NCBI GenBank assembly: GCA_963924565.1
Contig: OZ004615.1
Span: forward strand, 20,088,001 to 20,152,000
Length of the DNA stretch: 64,000 bases
Reading direction: 5' to 3'
DNA from: Ascidiella aspersa
Lineage: Eukaryota
The notes below the pieces were generated by a model, which ran no database searches, had not been told where the DNA came from, and worked only from the letters and a program-made list of their open reading frames with translations. The stretch's first letter is position 1; each line of letters begins with the position of its first letter. Positions 30,274 to 63,479 of the stretch are shown here, piece after piece. Both the position numbers and the translations under genes were made by a program.

Positions 30274-30684
30274 AGTGTTGTAAACAATTCATTTTGAAAT
30301 GACTTATGTCCCAGTCAAGTCATTTGTAAATTAACTGAAATACAAGTCGGGTCTTTTTGAATAAATAACAAGTCAAGGCCCTGTCCAAGTCATCGGTTGC
30401 CCAAGTCAAGTCATAATTAGAGCAAGTCAACTTTAAGTCAAGTCCTTGTGATAAAATGAAACGTTAACTGATAAACTCATCTGACTATACCTCAAAAATT
30501 TGGATAAATAATGCGATTTGAAAAAGAAATGCCTATTGAAATAACTTTTTTTTAACCTAAGTCATTTGTCCGATAGACTTCAGTCAAGTCAAGTCATTTG
30601 GTCAAAATACTTAAGTTAAGTTATCTGAAAACAGTGACTCGAGTGCACTAAGTCAAGTAATAAACTTAAGCCATTATAAAACTG
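30274..30684 (+). mobile_element. Family B MITE (AAGTC-rich; ends AGTGTTGTAA...TTACAACACT), most complete copy
   Basis: Starts AGTGTTGTAAAC, has many (C)AAGTC units, ends CCATTATAAAACTG; collinear with the other copies. Confidence 0.8.
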
Positions 30685-31337: not shown

Positions 31338-31432
31338 AGTTGTAGTTAGACGTAGTATGGATACCAAAGCCCATACAGAAGTAGGTATCATTTTGAACGT
31401 TTATAATAACTCTTTATTTATTTTCAATATAT
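31338..31432 (+). mobile_element. Family A repeat, 5'-truncated arm
   Basis: aaagcccatacagaagtaggtatcattttgaacgttt...aataactctttatttattttcaa. Confidence 0.8.
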
Positions 31433-31761
31433 GTTTATTGAACGGTCCTCTGTAGATTAAAAGTGCTTTTGTAAATGTACAGTCTCCCTCCAAAACGACT
31501 CTGAAATTGGCCAGTTACGGATGTCGTCGATATGTGTAACGTCGGTCTGACTCTAACGGCGCACTGGGCACCTGTCAATTCGCTCGCCACAGCGGCCAAT
31601 CATCAATCATTCGCGGTTCACTTCTTTTCCCAGAATCGACGATCGTGGGCCTGTCCTATACGGCCGGCTCTTCTTTACCAGCCTGTTTTTTTTACAGCTG
31701 TGTAAAAACCATAGGGCAGTGGTGGTTCTAGACCTGTTACATCCCATGGACCCCTTTGTCT

Positions 31762-31919
31762 AATAATGATTTGACTGGAACTTGACTTGGGAAACCGATG
31801 GCTCGGACTGGGACTTGGACTTGTCGTTTTTTTGAAAAGAATTTACTTGGATCTAAGTTATTTTACAAAATACTTTACTGGGACTTAAGTCATTTCAAAA
31901 GACTTGTTTACAAAACTGG
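31762..31919 (-). mobile_element. Family B fragment (reverse)
   Basis: cttgacttgggaaaccgatgg...actgggacttaagtcatttcaaaa...tttacaaaactg matches the reverse complement of 30274-30415. Confidence 0.75.
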
Positions 31920-34548: not shown

Positions 34549-34747
34549 GTTACTTAATCAGGAATGCCTCGAGTCTCTTTTATCTGCAGCCAAGCGCTAC
34601 CTGGGCGAACTTTTTTACTTATTTTTCGCTCAAAGTGTGATTGCTGATTGTTCGGAGATATTGCTTTATAAAAATCTTAACATGTCATTTCGCCCAGGTA
34701 ACTTGACTGCAGATAAAAGAGACTCTTAGCATTCCTGATTAAGTAAC
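34549..34747. mobile_element. Foldback MITE with ~60-bp terminal inverted repeats
   Basis: GTTACTTAATCAGGAATGC..GAGTCTCTTTTATCTGCAG..TACCTGGGCGAA is mirrored by TTCGCCCAGGTA..CTGCAGATAAAAGAGACTC..GCATTCCTGATTAAGTAAC. Confidence 0.85.
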
Positions 34748-37700: not shown

Positions 37701-38424
37701 GTTACTTTTTGGTGTATTGGAAGCATGACGTCATGGCTCATGATACATCGATATTAATCAAAATTTCAGAGTTTGGGGGGTCATACGGGGGGAAGTACAT
37801 CTGTGCCAAAAATATCACATCTACCTAATCGTATGCATGTCAGAAGGTTTTTTTCCACATAGCTCCCCCATAAGTCGCAACCGAAAGTCACGCATAGTAG
37901 ATTATTACCCTGCCTTACTTCCAAATTTTGCCTGGATTTTGCAGAGTCGAAGGTCGACGGGGAGAATTCCGGCTTTCGAAAGGGGAATTCGACAGCTGTA
38001 AATCGACAAAACGTCACGCTGAAACCACCTCGAACCGGCAGACGGTTTGCGCGAAAAATCCGACTTGGACAGTTGGTGAGAAAATTGGCCTGTCACCGCG
38101 CGGCCTCGGATTAGAATCAAGCGCAGCCCGCTGCTGCATTATTTCCCATTAAAAATCGATAAGACCGCGCGCGCCTAATTCGTATTCCCGACAGCGTATA
38201 AGGGCACGGTTGCAATCTGGATCTTTAGAACTTGTTGCTTTGTATAATGGAAACAGAGTGAAGAAAGCCTATATGAGATCATCTTTGGAGTTGTGGTACC
38301 ATACTTGGTCATATACACGAAATACATAATTTTGAGTATAGGTTAGGTATTTGTCCTACTGTTTACGGAGATAATTGGTTCACGTTGTTTTAGCGTTGTG
38401 CTGTATTTTGGCGAACGAAATTCG

Positions 38425-38512
38425 ACGGCCCAGTGTTTTTCTATGCCTTGGTCAGGGTTCGAACCGCCGACCTCAGTATTGCCAGCTTTTGAATAATAAG
38501 CAACTGGCCAAA
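38425..38512 (-). mobile_element. Possible degenerate tRNA-derived SINE head
   Basis: On the - strand, TGGCCAGTTG (A-box-like) is followed ~30 nt later by GAGGTCGGCGGTTCGAACCC (B-box GGTTCGAACC); no intact cloverleaf. Confidence 0.3.
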
Positions 38513-41500
38513 TTTCAGAATGACCCCTCGAACACATAGTGTTCTCACGGCGGAATTCACTGGCAAAGAGGTGATGCTTCTCACAAGAAAGCCGCAACGC
38601 GCAGCAAAGACGGGCGCTGCAAACAAATCGGCCGCCGCCACGTTTTTCCTGGAAACCCGATCCGACCTGTAGCGACGCGGCCGAGTGGAATAGGCATGTG
38701 GCCACTTGGCATGCAGGAGCGGCCTTATAGCTGTCCGTGTCCGAAAGGCGCCGTGTTTGCGTCGTAAACACATCGGCCGACGATATTTGACAGTCGCTCT
38801 CGAACACCAGTTTGCCTCGAGAGAATCTTTTAGGTGTGCTGCTGAGCTGTTTGTGATTTTTGAAATAGTCTAATCGAATTATAAATGGTGGGCATGCATA
38901 CAAGACTGGAAAATCACCATACATTTGATAACTGATATATTGTCGAATTTATCTATTCTACGGCTTGCCATATTGTACGGAAGACAACGCATTAAAATTT
39001 GCCCTATAATTTTTCTGGAAACTTTGTTTACAAAAGGTATGGCGCGATCTTGTTTTATTATTGGCGTGCCACAATCGAATTACAAAAAAAGATTTTTTCT
39101 TGCAAAACGATTACAAGAAAAAGAGAAGACTGCACTGTTATAAGAAATGAGAGAAGATGTCTGATTTGCTAAATCGCGCTAAACTGCCATAAATCTCATG
39201 CGCTTTTGAGGTTTACAGCTGTGTGCCACTGTCGGCTATTTTAATTGCTTGACAGGTAATAACGGCCGCCTCGTATAGCATTTCGTCTTGTCATTGTCCG
39301 GCTTTAAGGTTGTAAATCGTCCCGGGCGCGAAATTAAAACGACAAGCCAGCGCATTCGAGGTTTTGCGATATTGTTAATCGATAGTGCGTCAACTGCGTT
39401 GGGTATAAGCCCTCAATGTTTGCGGAATTTAATCACTACGTTAATCCCTTTTCGGCTGACTGGCCCCTTGCTGATTAAACAGGACCCTGAAAATACTGGG
39501 GGTCGAAAACTGGCCACAAATGTTTAGTGGTTAAGTTGCTCAAACGTGATTTTGTCCACGCCTCTGTTCTGTGGACAGAAAGCCGCCCCCCTTTTTTAAA
39601 TACAAAAACTAAAAAAAAAAATTTTAATAGTTTGCACTTACCTATGCATAGTAAATAATCTTGCATGCCAAATCGTTTTCACATAAACTGTTCTGGGAAA
39701 ATAGTAACAAATTCCATTCAGCACGCGAAACGCCTGTTATTTTTAACAAAGAGGTTTCTACCAAAGCTACTTTGTTGCGGGCGATGAACTCAAGACCCGG
39801 GGTCAGCTACAGCTCCCAAAAAAAAACGACGACTTCGGCCGCATCATCCTATTATAGTCCGTGTCAACTAACCAGCGCCCATGATAGACTTGAAGCTGCC
39901 GCCACCGCCGCTGCCTTGTAAGCTCTTCAATCACGACAGGCTTGTTTGGACGGTCGCGTTGTAATGCACTTGCATTTGGCTTGGCCGGCATATAGGGCCG
40001 CTTTAAAAGAACCAAGGCCACTTTTAAACCACGTTTCTGCGCTCAGGTGTCATTGCAGTGTATTTTTACCGAAAGGTATATGTGTTTGCGGTTAGAAATC
40101 GGTCTCTAGTATAGGTTTTGCCATTTATGGTGCGAAAATATCTCAAAAACGAGGTTGAAGTCCCAAAGCGGCCGCATTTTTTTCGGCTACCGGAATGTGG
40201 GCCGCCTCCTGCCGCCGTGAGTCGTGTTTGCGCCCGCGTAAGCCCGTGTTTGTGTGAGTTCTAGAAGCAGCGCAAGCGGCCCGCGCGCCCCGTTTGAAGC
40301 AAGCCAGGACAAGACGCGGCAAGGCGGCGCTTTCATTTCTGTTGCGACAACACGAATCACACGTCTGGCCGCTTTTTCGCCTGCCTTTGCCCGTTGGTTG
40401 TGAGACGAAAGCGAACCTTTTCCGTGTGTTCCCTTGCAACAGACGGGCGCTGAAGGGTTAGCACCAAGTATGAGCCGGTATTGCTTTGCTGGCGCGCAGT
40501 TTGAACAGCTGAGCAAATTTTAAGGGCAGGGTTGTTGTAAACACTAAGCTGAAAGTGATATGTTTCACCCCTTAAGATGTTCGATACTTCAGGTTTTATT
40601 TTGTCATCGGTAACTAATATTGTAGCTTAAAATTAAAGATCCGATAATCAATGACGTCATCTTAAGGTCAAACGCCAGGTTTATGAAATTAAAACTTGCA
40701 AACGTACTGTTTTCCGCACTGTTACGCTAAACTTAGCGTTTTATACTAGGAAAACGTAATAGGTCCAATTCCGTAGACGATATGCGCATAATTTATGATA
40801 GTATCGGATCAGCACCGATAGTACCACCCTAGTATCGGACGAGTTCCGATAGGACCAACAATCAACATGCGTATCCCATTTGTTATTATCGGAAGCGTAT
40901 TACTGCAATATACACTCGCCTGTTTTATCTACGCCATGACACATTAGCTCATTAACCCCAGAGTAAGTTCTTACTGGGGCCGGGGTAAGTTTAAACGTCG
41001 TGGGCAGCGAAGCGCCGCTAAACGCTTGGCAAGTGTGTATACTCTTCTAGTTTCGGCTTCTGTGTTTTGTGTATACGCGCCCTCCTCGCAAGTACCTCGA
41101 GTGATCTCGGCGCGAGTAAAACACAAGTCGTTCCCACAGGTCTCTGCTCATAGTGTTAATAAAACCTCTGGAACAACGGGTAGCGCAGTTTGACTAAATC
41201 TGCGGACAACTTTGATTTTTCTTTTCTTGTTATTTGATGCATGTTTTGTTTAGGACTTTAGATCTTTTACCTTAATCCGAGAAAAATACTAAATTTGTCT
41301 CTGGCAATTCGAGAAAATACTTCCAGGTTAATGGCATAAATTATGGGTTATGTTGATAACAACAGTTACTAAAGTATTAAAATTGCAACTTTACAGCTAA
41401 TCTATATGTGACCCACATCGCTATGAACGCGTTGATTTTTATTCAAAATATGCTTAAACAAACACCATAGACACGTTATCCGTGAAAGAACGACTGAATT

Positions 41501-42912
41501 TTATGGCTTTGCGGACCCGGTCGTTTTAACGCGCCCTGCGTGCAAACAGGCCACAGAGCGGTTGCGTGTGAAAAAACAAGGCGCAGGCTGTCAGTCGTAA
41601 CGTCGGTGGCGACCTGCGCGCGTCGTGAAAGTATACGAGCTCGTCACTTCGAAAACAGCATTTTTTGCTTGCCTGCTGTTGCCCATTTCGCCCTGCCTGA
41701 GTCGTTTGAAAGCGGCTTGAATGCACGGTGCGAAAGATCGGCCCACGCGCTCGTAAAACGCGACGCAATTGACCTGTCAACGAACTGCGCTCTCAAGTTT
41801 ATGGCCCGCGCCGCGCAGATCGGGCCAGGAGAAATTAAACCGCCCGTATATACCTGCTGTAGTTGAGTTTGTATGCCTGCTGTGAGGACAGGTGGTTTGC
41901 CGTTGTTTTCGCTCAAGCGGCTGGTCAATGCGTCCCGTACGGTTAGAAGGAAGCGTGATATTACGAGCCAGCATAAAATGTAAGAATGAAAGACAAAATT
42001 GGTTTGTCGGATTTTGCAGTAAGTAAGAAAAAATGTAGATAAAGTCAGTGACACTGGGTCAAGCACCTGTATTATTTTAGTGATCTTTTTTAAAACTTAT
42101 TTGTTGTTGTGTCACAACTATGTACACGGAATACTAAACGTATTGTATTTTCCCAGGTTTTCAATGTAAGTAATGTTATGTAAAGTTAGTGATTATTGAT
42201 TTTTTCGAGCAAGGGAACTCTCTTTAAGCTGACATCGAAGAAACGGCATTGGTTAAAATTATCCAACACAACTGGAAATGAGGTTTAACGAGACAAGGAC
42301 AGAACTCGGAATACCCCCACCCAAACACCAAGTAAGTCGAAAAATCTATAATTATATAAAAAAAATCGACTCAATATGGCACCAACGTTTAGCTATTCCA
42401 AGAAGTTGTTTGTTTTTCTCTTTTTATTAAAATTGAAATGGAGCATTACGAAAAAGTACGTATTTCTCATCATGTCTCTCGTTCTACAATAATACCTCGG
42501 GGACCCAGGCATTTGATACATCTGTATCTAACGACGTGCACCTCGAAGCTTGTCATTTGTCCAATTACGTCTGTACGAGGGCAGCGAATGCAATTCTCAG
42601 TATGTCGGGTCACGGGTGTAATGTTACCTCGAAAATTGACCATAACTTTGGTCAAGCCCTGGAGAGTACTGTAAGGTCGAAATTGTCGCGTCGCCAACGC
42701 GCTATATTTGCGCCGCAAAGTTAACCAACTTGTTGAAGCACTTTACTGCTAAACGCCGTATTTGATTGGCCCAGTGTCCATAGAGGTCGTGCGAAGGTCA
42801 GTCGACTGGATAACCGGTCAGTTGACTTTATCGAATCGAAACTTAATTTATTAACACTGTAGCGTCGATTGCACCGAAATTTTTCGCAATACAATTTTTT
42901 ATTACACTAAAC

Positions 42913-43245
42913 CAGGGGTTCTAAAACTTTTTTACCTCGGGCCCCTATTTGTTTTTTGGCTTCGCGTGGACGACGGAAGACAAGAAAATTTCAGAGATGA
43001 CCTCATAAATTGACGTTATAATACAAATGGACTAAATTGACGTCAAAATGTAATATCCAAAAATGTGCAAGTGAAATGCAGTCTAATTACATTTAGTGAA
43101 AAACCGGTTTAGTTTTATTAAAACTCTTTTTAAAATTTATTATTTCTTAAATATACACTAAAATTTCAATTAGGTCTTCATGGACACCATAAAACTTGTT
43201 CACGGATCCCTAAGGGGCTCATGGACCCCAGTTTAAGAACCCCTG
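42913..43245. mobile_element. hAT-superfamily MITE with 16-bp TIRs and 8-bp TSD
   Basis: TIR CAGGGGTTCTAAAACT ... AGTTTAAGAACCCCTG (1 mismatch); perfect TSD CACTAAAC at 42905-42912 and 43246-43253. Confidence 0.92.
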
Positions 43246-45119
43246 CACTAAACGTACAGGCGTAGGTTGTGTACTTCGAATATCGCCCTTTCTTATATCG
43301 ATTTTCAAAAATCTTGTTCCTCAAATCCGCGCCAACCTATTACCTCATAACATTTCTAGTGGTGCAGTGAAAATTTAGACGATTGAAATCTGCTTGACCT
43401 TTTTCGATAAAGTTCGACCTTAACTTCTGATAATTGAAAAAGTGGTCTCCTGGCGAACGTAAAATATAAGTTCGCACACTCGGTAATGTAAATGACGTAA
43501 AAAGTTATATAAATACTTAGCCTTGGGAAATCAAAAACAATTTATACGTATATAGGACTATCATATCGATTGATTTCTACCTGTTTGAGTTTCTGGGTAA
43601 TACGACAGCTTTTACTGGGACAACAACTTCCTGTTTAAAGCCTAGTGCTTTTCTCTTTAGGGAGAAAAGGTGCCTAAAAACATATCGACATGATAGCACG
43701 GGAAATAAGTGTAGCACCTACAACCCATCGGAAATGTCGAATACATTTTGATATCGCAAGTATGTTTATGGCTATTGGATATCTGTACCATTTCACTAGG
43801 CTGTTTTATTGATGACGGGTGCATTTTTTCAGCTATGCTTTATTACGGTCAGTTTTCAAACCCTTTTAAACTTAGCCAGCTTTTGTGGCTTTACATTCTC
43901 GACGTGGCTATAATAAGCTCGCTCAAAAATTGAGAAAAAAGGAAGCCCGGTGACTTTCAAAGCTGTCATTTGGCCTGGCCGCGAATCACCGTCGCCCAAA
44001 TCCCTAAAACCTTTGAAGAAAGCAAACACAGATTAAATTTAAAAGACCGCCGCCCAGGGCCCACATACAGGTTGTGGCACGGCTCGATTTTCAATGCGGA
44101 AATAGCCGCTTGACGTTTGCGCTATTTCCTGGTGTACACAGAACTTGGTCGGTTTCATATGCCCTTCAAAAGTCAGTCGGATGTATTTTTCGCTGTGATT
44201 TGTGTTATTTTGCAGCGCCACTCAAAAGGCACAAGTCCATCAGCAGAGTTCCATTTTCAAAGGGGTGCGAAAAATGTATTTTTCTTTATTTAGATTTGTT
44301 GATTTTTTTTACGAAAGCTAAGTGCAAAGAGGCAAACCGCTGATTTTAAACTACCGCCATTACAATTTGCCCATAAAACATCAAAAAACCGTGATGGCAA
44401 AAAAGGTCGTCTTTTGAAGTTGCAACGTAAGCCGTTCTTTTGTGTGCGGGCTGCGGTCTCAAGCCCAATTAACCGGCATAGACGCTTGCGGAAACCCATG
44501 TGCCTTTCATTCAGTCTTATTTACGCCGGCCGCGTTTTCTATTGAGCGAATATTAAAATTTGCGCATTTCCGCCCGACAGCTCTTGCTCAAAATTGTGAT
44601 CGAACGTCGAAGGTAATGTGCGCTCATCTTCGCTAGCCACAGAAATTTCCATTTCGATGTGCAGGTTTAAAAATCATCAGCGCCTGTATCGAGCACGGTT
44701 GTTACTTCGAAATTGTGATTACGGGTTCGCGTTTTTTTTGTCGAATCAACGGAACACCTGGGACTTATCTTGCGCTTGTTTGACTATCGGGGCGTTGCTC
44801 TTTCGATAACATCGCTCGGACACTTGTCAGAATTACAGTCACATTACCAGTCGACACTCAATGTCGATATCGCTGCTTTTCGTGGAGCAAGTGCTCACGG
44901 GGTCGTCCCTAATCGCTCGACAACAGGACCTGGGAGATTTTCTCGGTCCAGGTTTGTTTGCACAGCAATTCGGCAATGACGCCCGCGCGTCGTTATCATT
45001 AAATCGCGCCTCTGTTTTTAAGCATTTTTAAGTTTTCTATATCTTTTTCTTTTCCATGTTTCCCAGTTCTCTGTCGTTCGTGTTGTTTTTGATGGGCTTG
45101 AAATTTTTTTTAGTACAGC

Positions 45120-51349: not shown

Positions 51350-51460
51350 ATGGAATTCGACAGCGTGGAGGAATCGTTACGTAATGCGTTACGTCACGGG
51401 CCTGTCCAGGGCTCAAGCAGACTTCGGCCCGACATTCCCTCGCACCAAAACCACCACGAG
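51350..51460 (+). CDS. Coding exon 1 (MEFDSVEESLRNALRHG...HHE)
   Basis: Acceptor ttgcttgcag ends at 51343; ATG in gacATGG context; donor GAG|gtaatt at 51461, phase 0. Confidence 0.75.
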
Positions 51461-54400
51461 GTAATTAATTTATTAAACTGAACCTGCGTGCTACGTTTAA
51501 GCATCAAAACTTTCACCTTGTTGAGCTTATCAGTTCGCGAGAATATTTTGAAGCACGCTATTTCTGCAATTAGAAAAATTCTAAGTTTGTAGGGATGTTA
51601 GGTACGAATCTTTTAAGGATGAGCTACTTAACCGTACGAAAATGTAGTTTAAATCGATATATAATCATTTATGTGTCTATGTGTACACGAGCGACCAGGT
51701 CAATAAATGCGTTTACACCAGAAAAGAGATTTGTATTTTGTAAACTGATGTTAAGGAAATAAAAATCGCATAAGGCCTCAGTTAAAATTCGCCTCTAAGA
51801 GTGCGTCCTTTAAATCATTTTTTTTTATTTTAGATGCAAAAACGACACAACTATGTCACAGTTCAACCCGAACAGCAACGAACTGTAACACTCCAACAAC
51901 AACAACAACAACAACAACAGCAACATTTTTTACAACAGCAGGAACAACAGCAATATTCCCAGCAACAGCAGCAACTCTCCCCCCACTCTCGGGGTTACGT
52001 TGTTGACCCCACAATGGACCCCAATCATCACGTCCAGTCCCCACACCATCACCCACCAGAGGTGGTTTCCCCCAACAACAACCACCATCCCATGAGCGCG
52101 CCGCAACCAGCAGCCATCCACCAGAACGGAACCAGCGTGGTGCGTATACAACTTTTTTGTCTGATTGGGGAATTTATTTTTGACAATCTTCCCTTCGTTT
52201 GAGAAATTTATGGTAAAAGCCTTATATTGATTTGTGTTTATGGTAAAGCCCCTTGTTAAGTCGATATGTTTCCTGCCCCAACATAAGACTGGAAAATAGT
52301 TGTAAAAAGTTATATATCAAAAGAAATTTGGTTATATTCAGAGCGGTTTAATCCCATGCATAATCTTGTTGACCGTTTAAACTGTAATCTGTCGCTTCGC
52401 AAACCAATTTGACTTACAATAGTCTCACTGACTCTTAAAAACAGCATACCTTTAAAACGCCCTGAATAACTTCACGTGAAGTCTTATTACAATACCCGTC
52501 TACTCTCTCGCCCTATTTTGTATGCGACAATCCCGCATCGAAGTTGCGAAACTTATCCCGTTTCCTTGTGTTGACAGAGCGTCGACGACTTCCGTAAGTA
52601 CTGCGTCTTCCTCACGGAGAGAATGCAGAAGATGGAAGAGCAGAATGATCAACTGGCTCGAATCGCCGAGCAACAAAAGCACGAGTACAACAAGGTGAGG
52701 GAGGCCGGAGGCGTACGTTGCAACCCTTGACTTCAAAAGATGTTTGCTATACTTTTTTTCGTCTGAAAGTGCGACCCTTGGGCCTCGAAAACCTACAAGT
52801 CTAAGAGTCATTACCGAGATTTTTTAATGTGTTAACTCTGGACAAATGCGTTTTTCCTTGGTCAGGTCATTAGTTGAGCAAGCCAATTTTGAGTCAAGTC
52901 CTTGTCATAAAAAATAATATTGAACTATACAAATTTGTGAACTATTTCGATTATGAGTAGTGAATAAACAAACAAAAAAATAACACAAAATGAAACATAT
53001 AGCTAGAAAATTAGATAAATAACCCAAAGAATGCACTTCATTTCAACCCAAGTCATTGGTCCAAAAAAACTAAGTCGAGTCAAGTCAAGCCATTTGTTCA
53101 AAATTCTTAAGTCAAGTCAAGTCATTTTAAAACAGTGACTTAATTGCACTTAAATTACGTCATAAGCGTAAGTCATTACAACACCGACAGGCCCCCCAAA
53201 AACTTCGTTCTGCATTCTCAGGTGGCCGCACAGATTGCCCAGTCTGAGCTGATGCAGCGTCGTCTCCAGCACGAATGTACCAACCTACGGCGCCAGGTGC
53301 ACCAGCTCTCCACCTACAACCAGCACCTGCAGGAAGTCACCCTGCCCAGCCCGGAAGTGACGTCACAGACCCAGACCCAGCCCCAACGTCACCCGGACCC
53401 TGCCGCGCCCATTGCCGTTGTCGGTTAGTAGAGTTCCGTGGCTTTTGTTTTTTGCGTGCATTCTGCTTCTTGGAACTTTTCTGTGTTTTTTTGTGTTTTG
53501 TCGACCCGTGAAATGTATTTTAAGTGATTTTGGGCGTTTTGTTAGCTTTTAAAATCACTTTGTACTTATCACGGCACAAGTGGTTTTAAAATCTTGTCGA
53601 TAGCGAAACAAAATGGTAGTTTGAAATTTTAGATGTTTCTTATCCGGATTAACGACAGCCAAACGTTTAGAATACCTTTATACCAGGTTCAAAGTGTTAG
53701 TAGGCCAAACATTACTCTAATTCCTAGCCGTTTTTGTTTGTTAGACGACAGGTCTCTCATCGAACAGCAACAACATCATCTGCAACAACAACAATACTTG
53801 CAACAACAACAACAACAACAACAACAACTTCACCATAAAACGCCGCCACAGGATCTGTCGTTCGATTCGATGCAAAGTCTCAGAAGTGGATTTCACCAAA
53901 GTAATTATTAAAAAAACGTGTTGCGAAGAGCGAACAAATGTAAACGTATATGGGTTGACAGGCCTCCTAGTTTTCTGGGCGATCCTGCAATCTGGCCCTT
54001 TATTAATATTTTTAAATTTATACCATAAAGTTATTTTTACCCGACGCGACTAAAAAGTTACGTTTGACTTCCTATTTTTGGCAAAGATGCCCTACGCAAA
54101 GTTTCTCTAGCTTACAAGTTATAAATTTCGGTAAAACAAGAATGTTATTAGACCAAGTGTAAATAGCGGCAAGTGTAGTGTCACACTTAATTTTAATTCA
54201 ATAATTTTTTTTTCAAAAATAAATTTGGCGATAAACCGTCAGGTTTTCCTGGTGTAAAGTTTTTAAATGGTTCCGGTGTACGTTTTACAGTCCTCGAGTC
54301 CACATAAAATAAATCCAAGCCAATGAGTGATGGATCCTCACGAATATGCCAAAAGACTCCTACAGTTGTTACTAACGATATAAGATGTTAAACACAGCAA

Positions 54401-57400
54401 CCACGCCTACACCTAAAACAAAACCCCTCGAGAATAGTCCTAATAACAAACCCAAACCTCCGCAGCCATCAACGAAGCCTTAATCGCTCGCACCAAAGAC
54501 ATCCATCCCAACCGCCAGATGTCGCACGTGCGTCCCGACGAAATCGCCACCATCGTGGACCTATACAACGCCCTCCAGCGTTCGACGCCGCCGCGCGTCC
54601 AGCCCAGCCCGCCTGAGATTGTCGGTGAACCGTGTGATGACGTCACAGTGTCGCCAAAGGCCCAGGTCCTTGACGTCATCCACGAGCAGCCTGAGAACTC
54701 AAAGCAGTCGTTAGGCGAGCACTCTGACTACGCCACCCCGTCGGGCGTTTGCGCCACGCAGGCGTGCGACTGCTGCAGCAACGCTCGGCAAGTTCCGAAG
54801 GTCGGTGGTTCGAAGCCGCCCGCCGGGAGACCACGCGATATCGCAACGTCACCCCCAAAGAAGCCAGCGCATGCCCGCGTGAGCAAACTGGGCAGGTCGC
54901 CACGAGGTAGCGCCGCCGTGGAACGCAGCCAGTCTTTCGACAACAACGCCTACATCGAAGTGGAGTTAAAGCACTACGAAAGTGGCAGCGCCAGCTTGGA
55001 GCGCCCCAACCTTCAGTCCCAGCTTCAGTCAGAAGCAGATCCAGCCAAGGCCAGTTTCAGACGCGACAACCGCCTACGACGCTCACACAACCACTACATG
55101 AACGTTTCGCCTTCTAAACGCGAACCGCAGCGTCCGTCCAGCCTCGTACTTGACCTGGACACCGTCCAGGCGGCCATGGACGAGCAGCAGGCCGCGGCCC
55201 AGGGCATCGCCTTGTCCCCGGTCTCCCCCTACGAGAACTCTCCCTTGTTTTCTCGCTCTTTCGAAGGCTACCCCTCCGCGTCGAGAAAGCGAACCCCAGT
55301 TTCGCCCCAGAACCAGCCCGATGGGAGAATATGGCACACTCGGGGCGGCCCCTGTACGTCACAAAGCGAGGAGCGTTTGACGTCAGCCGACAGCGGGCAC
55401 GTGACGTCACCGGGGAGTCCCCCGATTAGCGGGTCGAGGCGTTCTTACTCTAAGTTGGACTTTGCCGGAGGTAAGCTTTTTTTTCGTCTGTTTTAAGTGT
55501 TTTTGTTATTGTTAATTGTTGCAACGATTTTTGTTAAGAATGTTGATTAAAGCATATGTAAACCATGTAGGGTAAAGTGAATTTCAATATAAACTTGGCA
55601 CCATGAGAAATTAAAGCAAAACCACTGGAATTGTTAGGCAATCAGCCTGTAGCTAGTAATTTAACATCTAGTGGATTTTAAATTTTGAATTAAGCTAATT
55701 GTTTATAGGAATTGGCATCGTGGCTGCAATTCAAACTATATGTATAACTTCATGAGTCAAAACTGTCTAACAAACTGTCAAGAGTCGCAATAGTCCAATA
55801 AACTACTTTAATAATTACAATAATTTCACTTCTGCGACTAAGAAAATTTTAGCAGTTTGTCCGTCGAGAAATTAGCAGTTTTTCGTTGCTATTTTTCAAA
55901 TTAGTTACAATAATTGCTTCAAGGGTAAACGCTATCAATTGCACGTTCTTATTCCGACATATTGTTGTCTTGTTTTTTACAGACTTGCCACCCCCTCCCC
56001 CGCCTCCCCCACAGCAAGAGGAAAACACCCCCGAAAATAACGAAGTCTCCCCTCGTCCAACAACTGAAAAAGCCAGAACCGAAAGCGACCCTCTGCCAAA
56101 GTAAGTGATCAAATAAAAAAAAATATTTTCTCTTTATGTTACGTTTAGGTTGTGTATCAATTATCTTGGTCAAACAGTAACTATCTTTGTTAATGGGGGG
56201 GCACCAAGGGGCACCATATAACGACAAATTGTATTGTAATGTTTACAAGCGTTCGCACAAGCGTGCTTCATCAGGTCAAAGTAGAAACCTATTTGTCTTT
56301 ACATAGTGCCACCTAGCTTATTTAGAATTAAACAAACACGGCCATTTACAAAGATGTCTTCTTTATTGTTTAACATAAGGCCATTAGATCAATATTTTCA
56401 TGTTTTGATTTAATCCCTTTGTTTTTCTTCATTAGAAAACAGGAAACAACTTCCAAAGATGCCAAAAAGTCATCACGATCAGGTAAAAAATATGTAATCC
56501 GACACACAGTAACCTAACCCTGTAATAATACTAAAAATCTAGTCCTGTGATAAACAACACGCCAAGACAGAACGCATGTAATTATACTATTAAGTTCGTT
56601 AAAACAAAAATTAAAAAAAATGGAAAAAAATTGATGAAAAAACCTTCAAAACTGAAAAAGCATCCTCCTCAAAAAAAAAATTAAATAAATTAAAAATTAA
56701 AATAAACTTAAACCGCGAAATCTTTTTCGCAGCCTTTTCCCAAATCCGACCGCGCAAGCTCAGCCTCTGGAAGCAGCGTAACAACAACAACGGCACTGGG
56801 CGCGCGCCCGGCGCCGCGGCGGGTTCCGGGGGAAACCCCGCTTCCCCGGACGCCGACGGCGCCAAGGCGGCCGGTTGGCGCCGCAAGTCGTACGCGGCCG
56901 CTTGCCGCAAATCGCAGTCGCTGGATCACCTGTACGATCAGATATTGATGGAAAACGGCCGCCAGCCGCAAAACCAAAGTCACCGTGGAACAAACGCCGC
57001 CGATAAGGCGCAACTTCGGGCCACCGTAAGTTAATAGGGTTGACATTAACAAACCTAGGCTGAGTTAGTTGGTTTAGTTTTTTAGGTAAAGATTTTTTGT
57101 TTGTGAACATGGGACGTGGCGGTAAACTATTCGTGTCAAGTCTTATGTATAGCTGTATAAAACCGGCGCGTAAAACTTAGGTCTTTATCCAAGTCTATAA
57201 AACAACCTTGGTGGATGCGGGTTGGTACAACGTTTTTATACTAACAAAAACTAAATTACGTTTAATCATTGGTAAAGCAACATAAAACTTGCCCGTAAAA
57301 ACTGAGGTCTCTATCCTATAGTGTTTAGAAAACCTTTGGTGGATGCCATTTAGTACAACGATTTTTATACCAAAGAAATCGTATAAAACATTTTGATCGC

Positions 57401-60400
57401 CACTTGCGATTCTCAAAAAACCAACAAGGATTTATTTAAAAGTAAAATATAGAAAAAACCCACATCATAGAATAAGGATGTCTTCCAAAAAATACCCACA
57501 TAAAATAAGGACTGGTCGAAACCTATAATCGTTTTCCATCTGGCTTACACGCAACCAAGGCCTCGTGTTGTTTCGGCGGACACAAAACTCATAATTGTAT
57601 TTGATTGGCAGACATTCAGCACCCTGCAGAACCACCAGAAGAGGGCGCCCTCGCCGTCGCCGGTAAAATCTGCGGAAGACGCACTTCCGGGTTCCCACCA
57701 GCTTCCGGTTCCCACGGAGGCGGACGAGAGCGTGTTTCTCGACGACGAAGATGACGTCAGCAACAAAGTCGACGAACCGCTCTCCGACGCAGGGGATTTC
57801 CCGCCGCCACCACCACAACACCTGCTCCAGGAAGTGATGACGTCAGATGGAAGGGGCACCGGGTACGCGGTGATGATGCCCCTCGACGCCGACCCCATTA
57901 CCCACGAGGCGATTGAAAAGTCCCCCGCGACTAGCCCCAAAGGTAAATTGAGTTATCTGTTTTGTTGTTAAAAAATTAACTGTCAGCTTTGGATCACATT
58001 TTTTCTTTATAACAATGGTAACCTTTTTAGGTATGTTAATGAATAAAACCCCTAAATTTTTGAAGACTAATCCTAACCAAAAACTTTGGAAAACTGTATG
58101 CTTACATAATTAATACTAGCCATCGTTTACCGCTATATTTTTGTCAGATTATTAGAACTATTTTTTATGCATTAATAAATGAAACACTTAACAAACTGGC
58201 TTTTCATTTAACTTCCATTCCACATTTCCAAAGAGACGACTTAAGCATGACTAGTTTAGTATATCACATCCACTGTCATTAATGTTACATTCATTTATTA
58301 TTGAAACCTGGTCCCTGAGCGGCTAAGTTAACGTTGTCATTATGATCTTCAGAAATCCATTTTTGCCTGTAAAAAAAGTAAAATCATTGAACCAGGTGAA
58401 GAAGCCGAACCCGGTCCGCCAGTTTCAACCACACGGTAGTTCGTTTTTCACATAAATATTTGTTCTTCTTCGCCTATAGCGGGCATTTTTGCAGTTGAAC
58501 TGTTATCCGTCTTTTAACGTCAGCTCGTTTTCTCCAGAACCTGCCTCTCCTCCAGCGATTGCTCCGAAGAGCCTCCTGCTCCAAAGAGGAAGCAGCAAGA
58601 GCGAGACTTCGATTCCGCAAAAGCTCAAGCTCTCGCTCGCCAGCCCCATCAGGGCAAACCCCTCCGCCCCCGGATTGCGGGTCCCCGATTTCGGCGCCGA
58701 GACCCCTGCGTCGTTGGTCAGCCGACTTCCCAAGTCGAGCACCTCCGACGCGATAAAGCGCGATTGTGACGCAATTGACGAAGGACTTCGCAGGCGGAGA
58801 ATGAGCGAAGGTAAGGGGCGATGTTTGATTGTATGTTGTCGTGTTTTGTGTCTTGTGTTTTATTTACAACATCTCAAAACGTTTGTGCTTTTTTATCCTT
58901 GTCCTATTTTTTGGGACGAAACGTATACAAACGACTAACTGAAGACATAAACCAATTTCAAACCAACTGAAGTAGTACTTTTGAAATCTTTCATTGTATC
59001 TTACTCAGTTAGGCGACTTTTATTTTTTCGTATTCGTGTCACATTGATCGTATTTTATTTTACGCAGGTCAAATTTTAGTTTTCAAAACGGTCGAAATCA
59101 CGCTTTCCTAGCACACCGATTAACAGCCAAAAAAATTATATGCAATTTGCTTACGAAGTCACTTGTTCTTTTTAGGTTCAGTTGGAAGGCGTCGCAAGGA
59201 CTTACTCGAGCAACAGAAGCCAGTCGACACCTCCACAAGTCAAGCGGCCAGCGTTCGCAGACGCCGCAGCATCAGCAGCGACTTCGCGCTCAACAAGCGG
59301 CGCGAAACCGACGTTCGCGAGTCTTCGCGCGCGCGAGAAAGCGCTGCTTCGCCGCCCTCGGCATCGCCGCCGCAACAGCCGCGATTTCCCTCCACCAACC
59401 CGCACGTGCGCCCGCCGTCCGGCAGCATCGGCAGGAATAACAGCGCCGGCGGGAATTCGACGCACCTTTCCCCGCAGAGCTCGCCGGCTGTGAGTCGAGC
59501 CGCGCGCACCGAGTCTTTAGAATCCGGCTCAAGCATCAGCCAGTGCAGTCAGGCCACCGAACGCAGGCCCTTGGTTAAATCAAGCTCCAAGCTTTCCATT
59601 TCCGCCAAGCCGGGCACTGCTGCTAAAAAGCCGGACTCCAAACCACAGGAAAGGGGCAGGGCCGCATCCAAAGCGTCCGCATCTGGGAAGAAGAGCAAAG
59701 ACGCCGCTCCGAAGAAGCGCAACTCGAGCGGCGGAGGGAGTGGTCAGTCGCGATCCCTGGTGGACATCATGAAGTCCAAATTCGGCCGCTCAACGTCCAG
59801 CGGGAGGACCAACTCCTCCGGGAGCAAAACAGAGCTTGCGGAGGCCAGAAAACAGCAGGAATCCGATCCACAGATAAAACCATCCTCCTCCTTGATCGAT
59901 CCTCGGACCCTCTCTTTGGAGCCAAACTCCTACCTCAACCCAGGAAAGGACATCTTCTCATCCACGTCTTCCTCTGTCGGAAGCAACAAGAAGAAAAAGT
60001 CCCTTGGAGGGAGCAGTGATGCAGCGGTCGGACGCAAACTGAGCCAGCCTTATCCGAACGGACTTTCAACCGCCTGCGTCCAGCCTCTCTCCAAACTGGT
60101 GGAGGAGGTCGTGTCCGATGAAGGATTCGCGGAGGGGAGCACGATCGAGCGTCCCGACAAGGATCAGCCTCGGGAGGTGGAAACAATAGCAACGCCAGCG
60201 TCGGAGCGCAAGTACGTAGAGACTTCCTTCCCGGCCGAGAACTTTAACTCATCCCAACAACAACAACAACAACAGCACCAGCAACAGCAAAGAAGGAGGC
60301 TCCCCAAAAAGGAGAACAGCGACTGGTACGAGAGCGTTGTGACCGTCCAAAGCGACAAGGAGCATCCCCAAGCCAAGCGCTTTCAGATCGTCGAGCAGGA

Positions 60401-63400
60401 TCGACTCTCAAGGCGCGGTTCGGGCAAGCAACGGCACGCCGCTGCCCCGTCTGTCCCTATGGAGGAACCGCCTTACGAAAACCTCCCGTTTGATCCACGT
60501 CAAGTTATGCCGCAACAGATCAATACCTTCACCGAGCTAAACAACAACATTGGTGACGAGAAGTTGAGTCATCACGCCCCATCGCCCCACCACCGTGACG
60601 TATTCGCCGCCGGGGTCACTATAGTGCGCACCCCACCGTCCCAGGGTGTTTCCCCCGACTCTACCCAGTCGAGGAAGAGTGCCGGTGGACCCAAGCTCGC
60701 TTCCGCTATCGGCCGCGTTGCGAAGAGTCCGGCGCAATATTCCGGAAGCAAAGAAGATCTGTCCTCTGTGAGGTCGTCGGACTCTTTTCTGGCTGGAGCA
60801 CCAGCAAAATCAAGTAAGTTTTTGCTGTTTTTTTATCTTAGATTTATATTTTTAGGTTTTTGAATTTTTTAATTTTGGGCACCAACACACTCTCAGTTGT
60901 TGCAAAAGGGCGTCAAATAAAGTAAAACGATCAACATTAAAAAAAAAGAGTTAAGGAAAAAAATATGTAAAAAATCGAAAAAAAGGTTTTTATTATTATT
61001 AAAATTTTTACCCTCATGTAAAAATAATCCGAAACCTTTTAAAATTTCGTCATACCAAACTGGTATTTAAGCTTCAATCTAAATGGAGTTCTTTCAAATA
61101 CAGTTCGTAGCAATACTATTACAATTTTCTGTTTAAAAATACTACGTTCTTTAAGCTGTAAACTAACCTTGCGCTTTTTTCACTTCCCAGAAAAACCAGA
61201 CAAGGACTTAAGCGGACGCAAGATCAACTACTCGGCTCACCAGAAGGTCTTTGAGAAGGCCTTCATCAGTTCCGTGGTCGAGGCCCAACTGGCCCAGGCC
61301 TCCGGGGACCGGGGAAGTCCACAAGCTATGGGCGGAAGTGTAAGTAAAGCGGTCTATGTTTACTTGGGGCGTTAACGTTTAATTGGAAATACTCAATTCG
61401 GGAGGTTTTTTTAATTGAATATACTGAACTTGGAATAAATTTGTTTCAATTCAACTTGGGAAGAAATTGGTTTTAATTGGAGACACTCACTTTCGATAAA
61501 AGAAACGTGCCAAAGTGAAAATAGGGAAAGGATTTACGAGCATTATATTATATAGGAACATAACCAAATTATTTTGCGTCATAATGATATTTAAATGTGA
61601 AATAACTATAAAACTATATCTAATTGTGTTGACCAAGACATTTATACGGATTTGTTTTGAATTATTTTCAAAAAACGCCGGCACAATCTGAGGTCTTTGA
61701 AAAACTGCAAATTGACTTTCAAAAGTCTTTGAATGTCTTTAAATATTTTCATAAATTTGTTTGGTCAATTCGGCAAACTCGCCCAGAAACGCCATTTTTT
61801 CTCTTTCCATTTTTTACACGTTTTCTTGTTAATTTTTTTAGACGCCCGACTCGTCGCCTCTGTCCCAGGCCTCCAGCGGCGCCGACAGCGTCATGAACGG
61901 TTCCGTCGGAACCGGTTCCAGCTTCGGCTCCCTGCCCTCAGACGGACTGGTTGACGTCACCGAGTTCCAGGGCACCACGTCATCAGGATCGTCAGAGCCT
62001 TCGTCCAAGCCCAGTCAGCGCCTTTCAAAGTCGAAGAGGAACAGCTCTTCTGGATTCGGATTCTCCGGACGCGCCGGGAAGACGGGAACAAACGGATCCA
62101 ACACCTCAACTTCCAGCTCCGAGAGGAGCTTCCGCGGAAGAAGCAGAACCTCTTCATCCGGTCTTCCCCGCTCCCCTGCTGTGTCAACTCCACCTGCTCC
62201 TACCTCCACCGTCATCCAGTTGAAAGAGTCAAGGAGCTCCTCCTGTGTATCCTACGCCAGGGATGCGTCCCCGGCGATTCCTCCGGATTACCACCACTCC
62301 GCTTCCAAGCAACCTCCAGCCTACTCTGAGCCCTCCGCCGATAATAAAGCCCTAAACGCCGCCAAGAGCTTACAGAGCCGCCGGTCGCAGTCCGGATCGC
62401 GAATCTCCCGCATCACTGCTCCGAGCAAACTCCCTTCTCCCGGAAAAGGATCCCGCTCTCAGAGCACTTCCTCACAAGACGGTGCTTCCCCGAAGCCCCA
62501 GTCACCCAAGGTCAAGTTGGCCCCGCTTAATTACGGCTTTCCGCCTTCGCGCGCTCGGGCGCCGTCTAACGGCCGCCAGAACGAGCCGGTTTACGAGAAC
62601 TCGAGCGTGCTGATGAGCCAGCAGGCGGCAAGGAAGGGAAGAGCACAGGCAACCTCTTTACGGTAAATTATAGGTTTAAGGTAGATTGTTTTTAGTTGAA
62701 GGCAATGTGACGTTATCCGTTTGAAAACCAATAATTCTTTGTGTTTTGAAAGAGTAGCTAAGATACAAATGAATGTTAGTCTCCGATTTATTTTCGCAAT
62801 AATACTTTCTAGTCGAGGTAATTTAATTGGCAAGTTGGAGGTTTAACCTTTGTTTTTAAAAGAAGCGAAAACAACCTGCCCAAATCAATCAGATTCCGAT
62901 TTGCTCGTTTTTCGCAATAACTTTTTCGCCGCAATAACACTTTCTTGTCGACATATAATAATTTGATAGAAATAGAACAAGATATGTGTTTAATTTGCGC
63001 TGTCTTTTATGACGCTGAAAATGACCGTCTTTACCGTTTAAAATGTTTACGAATTCCGCAGAATGAAAAAGAGGAACATAAAAAGTATTAAAAATTCTTG
63101 TGGGTAAAACTTGACGAAAAGAGGGAACACCAAAAAATACTATTTACAGCATAATACTACAACAAACGTTAGCAAACTGCAAAACGCTACAAAATCTAAA
63201 TCTGTTATTGTTGGTATCAGATCGCATCGAGTTAACCCCAAGTGATTGTTAAAAGCAGTATTTGAGTGCAAAAAATTAATCTGTGATTGCCCGTATTTAC
63301 GATTTTTTTCTCCTGTTTTCAGACAACCGACCGTGTCCTCCTCCACACCGACCTCCAGTCGTCCTCCCTCAGGGTCCTCCGCGTCCCAGCTGGAGCAGAG

Positions 63401-63479
63401 AAGGTTGAAACGCAACATCCCGTCGGCGGTCGGACTGCAGAGACCCAGAGCCGTTAATCTGGGAGTCGGAGCAGGATGA
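51350..63479 (+). CDS. NCKAP5: 15-exon gene, ~1907 aa NCKAP5/NCKAP5L(Cep169)-like coiled-coil plus disordered scaffold protein; join(51350..51460,51834..52139,52578..52694,53222..53423,53745..53900,54466..55470,55983..56100,56436..56482,56733..57025,57612..57942,58538..58810,59176..60813,61191..61339,61842..62662,63323..63479)
   Basis: All 14 introns are GT...AG and their phases (0,0,0,1,1,1,2,1,0,1,1,1,0,2) chain into one open frame of 5724 nt ending in TGA. Exons 3-4 encode ERMQKMEEQNDQLARIAEQQKHEYNK-VAAQIAQSELMQRRLQHECTNLRRQVHQLSTYN, which matches my recollection of the NCKAP5/NCKAP5L coiled coil (ERLKALEAENSALALENENQREQYERCLDEVANQVVQALLTQKDLREECVKLKTRVFDLEQQN). Gene structure confidence is high; the family assignment is from memory, not a search. 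Confidence 0.75.
51834..52139 (+). CDS. Coding exon 2 (polyQ, H/P-rich)
   Basis: Acceptor ttttattttag; donor GTG|gtgcgt; phase 0/0. Confidence 0.85.
52578..52694 (+). CDS. Coding exon 3 (SVDDFRKYCVFLTERMQKMEEQNDQLARIAEQQKHEYNK; coiled coil)
   Basis: Acceptor ttgacag; donor AAG|gtgagg; absent from the ORF track but in phase with both neighbours. Confidence 0.88.
52790..53185 (+). mobile_element. Family B MITE inside intron 3
   Basis: gagtcaagtccttgtcataaaa...cccaagtcattggtcc...aagtcaagtcaagtcattttaaaacagtgact...aagtcattacaacac. Confidence 0.8.
53222..53423 (+). CDS. Coding exon 4 (VAAQIAQSELMQRRLQHEC...; coiled coil)
   Basis: Acceptor cattctcag; donor G|gttagt; phase 0/1. Confidence 0.9.
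53351..53366 (+). promoter_or_regulatory. Perfect ETS-CRE composite motif CCGGAAGTGACGTCAC inside coding exon 4
   Basis: Exact sequence match to the overlapping GABPA/CREB motif; function untested. Confidence 0.4.
53745..53900 (+). CDS. Coding exon 5 (polyQ)
   Basis: Acceptor tttgttag; donor A|gtaatt; phase 1/1. Confidence 0.85.
54466..55470 (+). CDS. Coding exon 6
   Basis: Acceptor ctccgcag; donor G|gtaagc; overlaps the 325-aa ORF. Confidence 0.9.
55983..56100 (+). CDS. Coding exon 7 (DLPPPPPPPP)
   Basis: Acceptor tttttacag; donor AA|gtaagt; phase 1/2. Confidence 0.88.
56436..56482 (+). CDS. Coding exon 8, 47-nt small exon (KQETTSKDAKKSSRS)
   Basis: Acceptor tttttcttcattag; donor G|gtaaaa; needed to convert phase 2 to phase 1 between exons 7 and 9. 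Confidence 0.8.
56733..57025 (+). CDS. Coding exon 9 (AFSQIRPRKLSLWKQR...RKSQSLDHLYDQIL...)
   Basis: Acceptor tttttcgcag; donor ACC|gtaagt; GC-rich open frame missed by the ORF track. Confidence 0.88.
57612..57942 (+). CDS. Coding exon 10 (acidic, DFPPPPP)
   Basis: Acceptor attggcag; donor G|gtaaat; phase 0/1. Confidence 0.85.
58538..58810 (+). CDS. Coding exon 11 (TSIP and SRLP motifs)
   Basis: Acceptor ttttctccag; donor G|gtaagg. Confidence 0.9.
59176..60813 (+). CDS. Coding exon 12 (large S/K/R-rich exon)
   Basis: Acceptor ttctttttag; donor A|gtaagt; overlaps the 566-aa ORF. Confidence 0.92.
61191..61339 (+). CDS. Coding exon 13
   Basis: Acceptor cacttcccag; donor AGT|gtaagt; phase 1/0. 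Confidence 0.88.
61842..62662 (+). CDS. Coding exon 14 (Ser-rich; SGLP, SKLP)
   Basis: Acceptor ttttttag; donor CG|gtaaat; phase 0/2. Confidence 0.9.
63323..63479 (+). CDS. Coding exon 15 (terminal, ...RAVNLGVGAG*)
   Basis: Acceptor tgttttcag; TGA at 63477-63479. Confidence 0.85.

What the first reader, a model, noticed from the sequence alone, without database searches (positions are those of the whole stretch)
53358..61959. Eight perfect CRE palindromes (TGACGTCA) written into the coding exons, in two reading frames
Seen: TGACGTCA at 53358, 54638, 54671, 55378, 55402, 57752, 57838 and 61952, all inside exons. Four are read as x-T-S (GTG/TTG/ATG ACG TCA) and four as x-D-V (GAC GTC A), so the DNA word rather than a peptide is what recurs. 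I found only six in the 51-kb upstream region (3339, 11818, 14026, 37726, 40652, 43038) and none in the introns. A rough base-composition estimate (about 60% GC) gives ~0.1 expected in 5.7 kb. Half-sites (TACGTCAC, AACGTCAC) also occur in exons. Inference: a bZIP-site code superimposed on exons encoding disordered protein, possibly marking exons, positioning chromatin or keeping the gene body unmethylated. It could instead be a lineage-wide mutational or k-mer bias.
Basis: partly seen in the sequence, partly recalled or inferred. Interest (0 to 1): 0.7.

Follow-up and report, generated by a model that had tools for sequence, protein, structure and literature searches.

The report
Genome-wide CRE excess rewrites sea-squirt codons
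The eight CRE words in this sea-squirt gene are real, but they are a local sample of a genome-wide glut of the same word (about 45,000 copies) that steers codon choice in many other coding-like stretches too, likely because a DNA-binding protein makes the word slow to disappear rather than because it marks these exons.

Summary
All 14 TGACGTCA sites lie where stated; eight fall in coding exons of a 15-exon ascidian gene (orthologue of Ciona LOC100179876). Synonymous shuffles give 0.29 (max 3 of 5,000), so the DNA word, not the peptide, recurs. The genome holds 45,059 copies (reversed control 5,750), and the word is the top 8-mer of unique DNA (O/E 13.7). Its density rises with local GC and CpG content, coding or not. 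GC-matched expectation is 2.3 sites in these exons, 0.5 in the introns and 9 upstream. Genome-wide, 23 of 37 other acidic-run Asp-Asp-Val contexts are spelled GAT GAC GTC A (2.4 expected); this gene's 8 of 9 does not differ (p=0.23). Eleven of 15 exons have no site, and a distant ascidian orthologue has none in 5.1 kb of aligned coding DNA. Exon marking and a conserved gene code are not supported; a residual 2-3.5-fold local excess remains. Best reading: a lineage-level ratchet in which bZIP-bound CREs are lost slowly (binding inferred, not shown). Ten literature searches found no description of the genome-wide excess, and no earlier scan note on it was found.

The parts
51350..63479 (+). 15-exon gene model, 1,907 aa, largely disordered with an N-terminal coiled-coil-like segment; orthologue of Phallusia/Ciona uncharacterized LOC100179876. 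Exons: 51344-51460 (ATG 51350), 51834-52139, 52578-52694, 53222-53423, 53745-53900, 54466-55470, 55983-56100, 56436-56482, 56733-57025, 57612-57942, 58538-58810, 59176-60813, 61191-61339, 61842-62662, 63323-63479
   Evidence: Open frame across AG/GT junctions; Phallusia 46%, Ciona 35% identity on exon 6; full-length alignment; matching segments in order in L142; sparse RNA reads on some exons, first mate on minus strand, no splice joints listed; no Pfam family above cut-off in 11 exon pieces
53358..53365 (.). CRE 1, GTG ACG TCA (V-T-S), exon 4; peptide not aligned in Phallusia or Ciona
54638..54645 (.). CRE 2, GAT GAC GTC A (D-D-V-T), exon 6; lineage-specific segment; 33 bp from CRE 3
54671..54678 (.). 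CRE 3, CTT GAC GTC A (L-D-V-I); Phallusia and L142 read L-G-V-I here, so likely gained with a Gly-to-Asp change
55378..55385 (.). CRE 4, TTG ACG TCA (L-T-S); peptide kept in Phallusia; 24 bp from CRE 5, the commonest of the four pair-spacing windows counted
55402..55409 (.). CRE 5, GTG ACG TCA (V-T-S; M-T-S in Phallusia)
57752..57759 (.). CRE 6, GAT GAC GTC A (D-D-V-S) after an acidic run, exon 10; one of 24 such spellings among 38 genome-wide matches
57838..57845 (.). CRE 7, ATG ACG TCA (M-T-S); Phallusia reads M-S-Q here
61952..61959 (.). CRE 8, GTT GAC GTC A (V-D-V-T), exon 14; peptide kept in Phallusia and Ciona, lost in L142 (G-D-M-I)
3339..43045 (.). Six upstream non-coding CREs (3339, 11818, 14026, 37726, 40652, 43038); about 9 expected from the genome's GC-dependent rate
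42913..43246 (-). Copy of a 338-bp hAT-like miniature inverted-repeat element whose family carries two CREs 13 bp apart; holds the 43038 site

Best explanation
The eight sites are a local sample of a genome-wide excess of TGACGTCA in this ascidian, which likely builds up as a ratchet because words bound by an ATF/CREB-type bZIP dimer in unmethylated DNA would be lost more slowly than they arise. Shown: the excess is genome-wide, about ten-fold or more in coding and non-coding DNA alike. It tracks local GC, CpG o/e and nearness to chromosome ends. It sets synonymous codons wherever the peptide allows, and the sites turn over between species. This gene has many sites because it offers 5.7 kb of GC-rich, CpG-rich DNA coding for a weakly constrained disordered protein.
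For: 45,059 sites vs 5,750 for the reversed word in 308.6 Mb. Top 8-mer by z in unique DNA of 137 evenly spaced 10-kb stretches, 122 sites vs 9 expected. Other predicted exons: 9 sites vs 0.8 by synonymous shuffle in 57 exons, 16 vs 1.8 in 167. Genome-wide acidic-run test: 24 of 38 matches (23 of 37 without the window's own) read GAT GAC GTC A, 2.4 expected, p=2e-18; this gene's usage does not differ, p=0.23. 9 of 14 EEE-x-T-S matches carry TGACGTC. Rate rises from 0.03/kb at 25% GC to about 0.5/kb at 55% GC; at 45-55% local GC unpredicted DNA has 0.35/kb and high-score exons 0 in 18 kb. Flanks are purine in about 80% of half-sites and independent on the two sides (A/A 46 vs 46.0 expected), as a two-half-site protein reader would give and a hairpin mechanism would not; the bZIP-type variant TTACGTCA is enriched 2.9-fold. 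Pairs cluster: 4,981 at 13-38 bp vs about 171, peaking at 23-25 bp among four windows counted. In a star-like transposon family the CRE has 32 substitutions in 326 cells vs 14.3% elsewhere (p=0.02), and its CpG 6 of 82 vs 65 of 318 (p=0.005). The genome encodes bZIP domains: 18 matches, 14 over cut-off. Not conserved: 0 of 8 in L142. In Ciona the motif TRTGACGTCA recurs in enhancer regions but mostly outside minimal modules, and one tested site was dispensable (PMC11001920, passages).
Against: A local excess remains: 8 vs 2.3 (p=0.002) or vs 3.5 (p=0.03); counted roughly as 5 clusters, p=0.09-0.18. Usage is 8 of 9 here vs 9 of 28 in sampled exons (p=0.005), and 6 of those 9 come from one gene, L088, so genes differ. 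Slow loss rests on essentially one repeat family; the first of its two CREs is unremarkable (rank 167 of 330 windows), the G position is not protected (12 of 70), and transposase-side constraint could explain it. Gains could not be measured (0 observed, 0.15 expected). Part of the pair clustering comes from repeat families (about half of the first 50 listed at 23-25 bp, judged by eye). No binding or methylation data were available. Exons outside the window are my own predictions, and some matches may be non-coding (reversed-pattern control: 13).
Confidence: 0.5

Rival explanations
1. Weak genome-wide selection keeps CREs as generic seeds of open, unmethylated chromatin. Each site matters a little wherever it lies, exons included, so the word is functional but not gene-specific.
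For: CRE density rises with CpG o/e (rho 0.20; 11 sites in 26 CpG-poor stretches vs 122 in 75 CpG-rich ones). Flanks within 50 bp are GC- and CpG-rich (0.445 vs 0.361 GC). Pairs favour 23-25 bp spacing. Sites appear even with amino-acid changes.
Against: The correlation is equally expected if methylation erases CREs. CRE-free introns here have the same CpG o/e as the exons. Retention is seen in transposon copies. The orthologue in L142 is CpG-rich (o/e 1.06) with one CRE in 17.6 kb.
Confidence: 0.25
2. The eight sites form gene-specific exonic enhancers (duons) that regulate this gene through ATF/CREB.
For: Residual 2-3.5-fold excess over GC-matched rates. Three close pairs. CRE 4, 5 and 8 sit on peptides kept in Phallusia. 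One Ciona enhancer needs a TGAC core inside this motif (PMC11001920, passage).
Against: The same spelling rule holds across all nine chromosomes. Comparable density in another sampled gene (6 in 6.4 kb) and in non-coding DNA at a chromosome tip chosen for being dense (52 in 65 kb). 0 of 8 in the L142 orthologue; 5 of 8 peptides absent in Phallusia.
Confidence: 0.1
3. A protein-independent, context-dependent mutation or repair bias creates or spares this word.
For: The excess is indifferent to coding status and appears in repeats. Other unrelated words (TAGGCCTA, TAGGCTAC, TACCGGTA) are also about 4-fold enriched.
Against: An 8-10 bp specificity matching a known bZIP consensus, independent half-site flanks, and pair spacing preference are hard to get from local chemistry. 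Those other words do not co-vary with CRE (rho 0.04).
Confidence: 0.12
4. Transposons seeded the word, and the exonic sites are relics of insertions or tandem duplications.
For: 58 of 184 sampled sites lie in interspersed repeats and 6 in tandem repeats. A frequent element carries two.
Against: None of the eight exonic sites matches a sampled repeat. Unique DNA alone has O/E 13.7. Exonic sites arise by point changes inside alignable peptide.
Confidence: 0.03

Closest known systems
Canonical cAMP-response element (CRE) bound by CREB/ATF bZIP dimers
   Same: Identical 8-mer, purine/pyrimidine flank preference, enrichment of the TTACGTCA variant, association with CpG-rich DNA.
   Different: Vertebrate CREs crowd near start sites; Ciona shows no such bias (PMC1796609, passages). 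Here the word occurs once per 6.8 kb genome-wide, in exons, repeats and intergenic DNA. Binding and cAMP response are untested.
TRTGACGTCA motif of Ciona notochord enhancer regions (PMC11001920, passages read; supplements not opened)
   Same: Same word and 5' extension; clustered (10 copies in 1.8 kb); mostly outside minimal modules; one tested site dispensable.
   Different: Reported as an enhancer-region motif in a few loci. The passages read give no genome-wide count and say nothing on coding exons or codon choice.
Duons (exonic transcription-factor sites that also code), as described in PMC6790085 (passages read), which cites Xing and He 2015 for the GC-bias objection
   Same: A factor-type word lies in coding sequence and fixes synonymous codons.
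   Different: Duons are defined by footprints and lower substitution rates. These sites have no footprint data, are not conserved in a distant orthologue, and are no denser than GC-matched non-coding DNA.
Fission-yeast ade6-M26/CRE recombination hotspot bound by Atf1-Pcr1 (PMC9775316, passages read)
   Same: A CRE-like word inside an open reading frame acting at the DNA level in meiosis; 4 of the 8 sites contain ATGACGT on one strand; density here is higher towards chromosome ends.
   Different: No recombination data here. A break-promoting motif is expected to erode (recalled, from no call), whereas this word has accumulated.

Membership tests
Canonical CRE (CREB/ATF site) | TGACGTCA palindrome | tested here: met
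   8 exact copies in exons
Canonical CRE (CREB/ATF site) | RTGACGTCAY flank preference, two independent half-sites (consensus recalled) | tested here: met
   Genome sample: A 0.50, G 0.32 at -1, sides independent; in the gene 10 of 16 half-sites
Canonical CRE (CREB/ATF site) | Central CpG unmethylated | tested here: inconclusive
   CpG o/e 1.05-1.22 suggests an unmethylated domain; methylation itself not measured
Canonical CRE (CREB/ATF site) | Position close to the transcription start | tested here: not met
   Sites lie 2.0-10.6 kb downstream of the modelled ATG; the start site itself was not mapped
Canonical CRE (CREB/ATF site) | Bound by a bZIP dimer in vivo, confers regulation | not testable with these tools
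   bZIP domains are encoded (18 matches); no occupancy data
Duon | Lies in coding sequence and constrains synonymous codons | tested here: met
   8 of 9 eligible peptides use the word; shuffles max 3 of 5,000
Duon | Conserved at the DNA level in orthologues | tested here: not met
Duon | Factor footprint and effect on the host gene | not testable with these tools
   No ChIP, ATAC or reporter data
Exon-marking or splice-enhancer code | Present in most exons and near splice sites | tested here: not met
   4 of 15 exons carry sites; 58-205 nt from the nearest boundary
Exon-marking or splice-enhancer code | Denser in exons than in composition-matched non-coding DNA | tested here: not met
   45-55% GC: 0.35/kb unpredicted vs 0 in 18 kb of high-score exons; above 55% GC 0.61/kb in exons vs 1.1-1.7/kb in small low-score and unpredicted sets
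Exon-marking or splice-enhancer code | Strand asymmetry of half-sites (RNA-level signal) | tested here: inconclusive
   ACGTCA 6 vs 2.7 and 16 vs 10.3; TGACGT 1 vs 1.0 and 5 vs 5.9; weak and confounded by the TGA stop
M26-type CRE recombination hotspot | Raised meiotic breaks or conversion at the motif, dependent on the bZIP factor | not testable with these tools
   Only a proxy: density falls with distance from chromosome ends, rho -0.29, p=0.0007

The most novel reading that the evidence does not exclude
TGACGTCA is a self-spreading word in this ascidian. A germ-line bZIP dimer bound to it shields that chromatid or biases gene conversion in its favour, so the word is driven into the genome regardless of function, most strongly near chromosome ends, and rewrites codons and even amino acids of disordered proteins (Gly to Asp, Ser-Gln to Thr-Ser here). 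This would be the mirror image of hotspot-motif erosion.
Probability: 0.12. Interest if true: 0.85.

Novelty: new variant of a known kind. Interest (0 to 1): 0.45.

Why it matters
As a feature of this one gene it is close to ordinary. The genome-level fact matters more: one transcription-factor word occurs 45,000 times and decides about 60% of synonymous spellings in eligible acidic-run contexts, where about 7% is expected. CRE/ATF/XBP1 motif hits in ascidian enhancer studies therefore need a genome-specific background, and codon-usage or selection analyses in these animals are distorted at such sites. It also gives a clean, testable case of whether protein binding to DNA can steer mutation or conversion strongly enough to shape protein sequence.

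Tried and rejected
RNA check: no RNA holder was listed in the index. One raw RNA run, 6 in 100 of it read, gave depth 0.4-2 on a few exons, no splice joints and no depth on the bins of sites 53358-55402 beyond position 54620. Polymorphism: none of the 40 listed differences (of 211) falls in the five sites covered, too few to inform. A small candidate exon near 58353-58442 had no phase-consistent fit and was left out; it holds no site. Pfam gave only sub-threshold coiled-coil/bZIP_1 hints, so the gene is not called a bZIP. Hairpin or template-switch origin was rejected because flanks do not co-vary. Peptide-level selection was rejected by the codon tests; eligible peptides are not in excess in sampled exons (28 vs 30.4), though they are in this protein (9 vs 3.0) and in Phallusia (11 vs 3.7), and not clearly in Ciona (5 vs 3.1). 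Gain rates in repeats were unmeasurable. My recollection that a Ciona methylome paper reported a CRE motif was not borne out: PMC3827831 (abstract and term search) has no such motif. PMC4700943 (passages) does not treat this word or tunicates. PMC11240583 (passages) lists only an Atf1-like motif among gastrula accessible regions. The original duon paper was not available. Literature searches; most subscription papers and all supplements were unseen, so absence from print is not established.
Full report
Observation. The window holds 14 perfect TGACGTCA at exactly the positions given. I built a 15-exon model from 51350 to 63479 with one open frame of 1,907 aa; exons are 59% GC and introns 33%. 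Eight sites are coding, four in the [VLM]-T-S frame and four in the x-D-V frame, and none is intronic. Every [LMV]TS tripeptide (4 of 4) and 4 of 5 xDV[TIMKNSR] tetrapeptides are spelled as the palindrome. Synonymous shuffles give 0.29 (max 3 of 5,000) and dicodon shuffles 1.6 (max 5 of 2,000). The DNA word is what recurs.

The gene. Exon 6 finds three proteins among 3,066 candidates: LOC100179876 of Phallusia mammillata (46%) and Ciona intestinalis (35%, two entries). The genome is therefore an ascidian's. The model aligns end to end with them, and a metagenome contig, L142, holds a further orthologue with matching segments in the same order. RNA support is thin: a few reads on some exons in the expected orientation and no joints. 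No Pfam family passes cut-off. CpG o/e is 1.05 in exons, 1.14 in introns and 1.22 upstream, which suggests an unmethylated domain. In Ciona, body methylation goes with broadly expressed genes (PMC3827831, abstract).

The right null. The genome (308.6 Mb) has 45,059 copies against 5,750 for the reversed word, one per 6.8 kb. In 137 evenly spaced 10-kb stretches there are 184 sites: 58 in interspersed repeats and 6 in tandem repeats. In unique DNA the word is the top 8-mer by z-score, 122 sites against 9 from an order-2 Markov model. Its rate climbs from 0.03 per kb at 25% GC to about 0.5 per kb at 55% GC. It also rises with CpG o/e and towards chromosome ends (rho -0.29 with distance). Applying the GC curve to the window gives 2.3 sites in exons, 0.49 in introns and 9.1 upstream, about 12 in all against 14 seen. 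The empty introns and sparse upstream region need no explanation.

Are exons special? I trained a simple exon finder with the motif masked. It recovered 13 of 15 exons of this gene and made false calls up to score 34, so I used scores above 35. The 57 such exons (37 kb) hold 9 sites against 0.8 by synonymous shuffle; 167 exons above score 20 hold 16 against 1.8. That is the same roughly ten-fold excess as elsewhere. Six of the nine come from one gene (L088, 6 in 6.4 kb). Matched for local GC, exons are not richer than non-coding DNA: at 45-55% GC unpredicted DNA has 20 sites in 56 kb and high-score exons 0 in 18 kb; above 55% exons have 0.61 per kb. Ten stretches from the tip of C1, picked because they were dense, have 52 sites in 65 kb of unique non-coding DNA. 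A whole-genome test avoids gene prediction. Of 38 matches to an acidic run followed by Asp-Asp-Val and an A, 24 read GAT GAC GTC A, spread over all nine chromosomes. Without the window's own site that is 23 of 37 against 2.4 expected (p=2e-18), and this gene's 8 of 9 does not differ from it (p=0.23). Nine of 14 EEE-x-T-S matches carry TGACGTC. Some of these matches may be non-coding.

What remains local. Eight against 2.3 is p=0.002 and against 3.5 is p=0.03. Sites come in pairs genome-wide, and counted roughly as five clusters the p value is 0.09-0.18, in a window chosen after the fact. Usage here exceeds that of my sampled exons (8 of 9 vs 9 of 28, p=0.005). The gene is in the upper tail, but nothing makes it a separate class.

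Conservation. L142 has no site in 5,061 aligned coding nt at 53.5% GC and one in 17.6 kb overall. That rejects conservation at this gene's density (p=0.0008) but cannot say whether that species has a milder excess. At 54671 both Phallusia and L142 read L-G-V-I where this species reads L-D-V-I, and at 57838 Phallusia reads M-S-Q for M-T-S. Some sites were thus likely gained with amino-acid change. Sites are missing from 11 of 15 exons and lie 58-205 nt from the nearest splice site, which argues against exon marking.

Mechanism. Shown: flanks are purine in about 80% of half-sites and the two sides vary independently; TTACGTCA is enriched 2.9-fold, while the AP-1 word TGASTCA is not. Pairs 13-38 bp apart number 4,981 against about 171, with 325 at 17-19 bp, 1,715 at 23-25 bp, 287 at 29-31 bp and 77 at 68-70 bp; repeat families supply part of this. 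In 25 copies of a 338-bp hAT-like element (27 found, two close relatives of one copy dropped) the two CREs carry 32 substitutions in 326 cells against 14.3% elsewhere. Their CpG changes in 6 of 82 cells against 65 of 318, and many changes give TGACGTAA. Pairwise alignments of all repeats agree (43 of 50 sites better kept than flanks) but are dominated by this family and biased by alignment seeding. The genome encodes bZIP domains. Inferred: a bZIP dimer binds the word in unmethylated germ-line DNA and slows its loss, so it accumulates wherever constraint is weak, including long GC-rich exons of disordered proteins. I give this 0.5, weak genome-wide selection for open chromatin 0.25, protein-free mutation bias 0.12, gene-specific exonic enhancers 0.10 and transposon seeding 0.03. 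That the pattern is genome-wide rather than specific to this gene I hold at about 0.9.

Comparison with what is known. It looks like a canonical CRE but fails the start-site position feature, as Ciona CREs do generally (PMC1796609, passages). A Ciona enhancer study found TRTGACGTCA as its one significant shared motif, ten times in a 1.8-kb region, mostly outside minimal modules, dispensable at one tested site and overlapping a needed TGAC core at another (PMC11001920, passages). That fits a background word that is sometimes co-opted. It works like a duon in fixing codons but fails DNA-level conservation, and footprints are untested (definition from PMC6790085, passages). The yeast M26 hotspot shows that a CRE-like word in a reading frame can act in meiosis (PMC9775316, passages), which motivates the novel case. 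Ten searches found no account of a genome-wide CRE excess or of its effect on codons in tunicates. Subscription papers and supplements were not seen. I recall, from no call, that D-D-V-T and M-T-S motifs are conspicuous in ascidian proteins, so specialists may know the effect informally. Earlier scan notes held nothing on this word in this genome.

Verdict. Interest 0.45, carried by the genome-wide phenomenon rather than by this gene.

Noticed in passing
G000:C9:20154920-20174253 (L002, L154, L155), just 3' of the window: A 9,668-bp tandem duplication at 99.94% identity, repeating a 726-nt predicted exon; a very recent duplication or an assembly artefact.
   Followed up: partly
window 42913-43246; L076:7802-8196 and 25 more copies: 338-bp hAT-like miniature inverted-repeat element, 27 copies in 1.43 Mb, with two CREs 13 bp apart and GGGGTCC subterminal motifs.
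   Followed up: yes
137 sampled loci L005-L141: TAGGCCTA, TAGGCTAC and TACCGGTA are about 4-fold over-represented in unique DNA and do not co-vary with CRE; unexplained.
   Followed up: partly
G000:C1:1-165000: Chromosome tip with 100 CREs in 164 kb, including a 70-bp minisatellite with one per unit; density falls with distance from chromosome ends genome-wide.
   Followed up: partly
G000, first at C1:3781-3838: A further repeat family with two or three CREs 24-25 bp apart accounts for much of the pair-spacing peak.
   Followed up: no
L088 (G000:C1:28000001-28010000): Another gene, with repeated domain-like exons, carrying 6 CREs in 6.4 kb of predicted coding sequence.
   Followed up: partly
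window 52861-53300 and 56161-56380: Two very high-copy intronic repeats (read depth hundreds of times the single-copy level), one built on AGTCA units.
   Followed up: no
window 50221-50440: A few RNA reads in the gene's orientation 1 kb upstream of the first coding exon; possibly a 5' untranslated exon.
   Followed up: no
window 51350-63479: The protein has no named family but keeps short linear motifs across ascidians (three Y-E-N motifs, a poly-proline stretch, a coiled-coil-like segment), as a tyrosine-phosphorylated scaffold might (function is inference).
   Followed up: no
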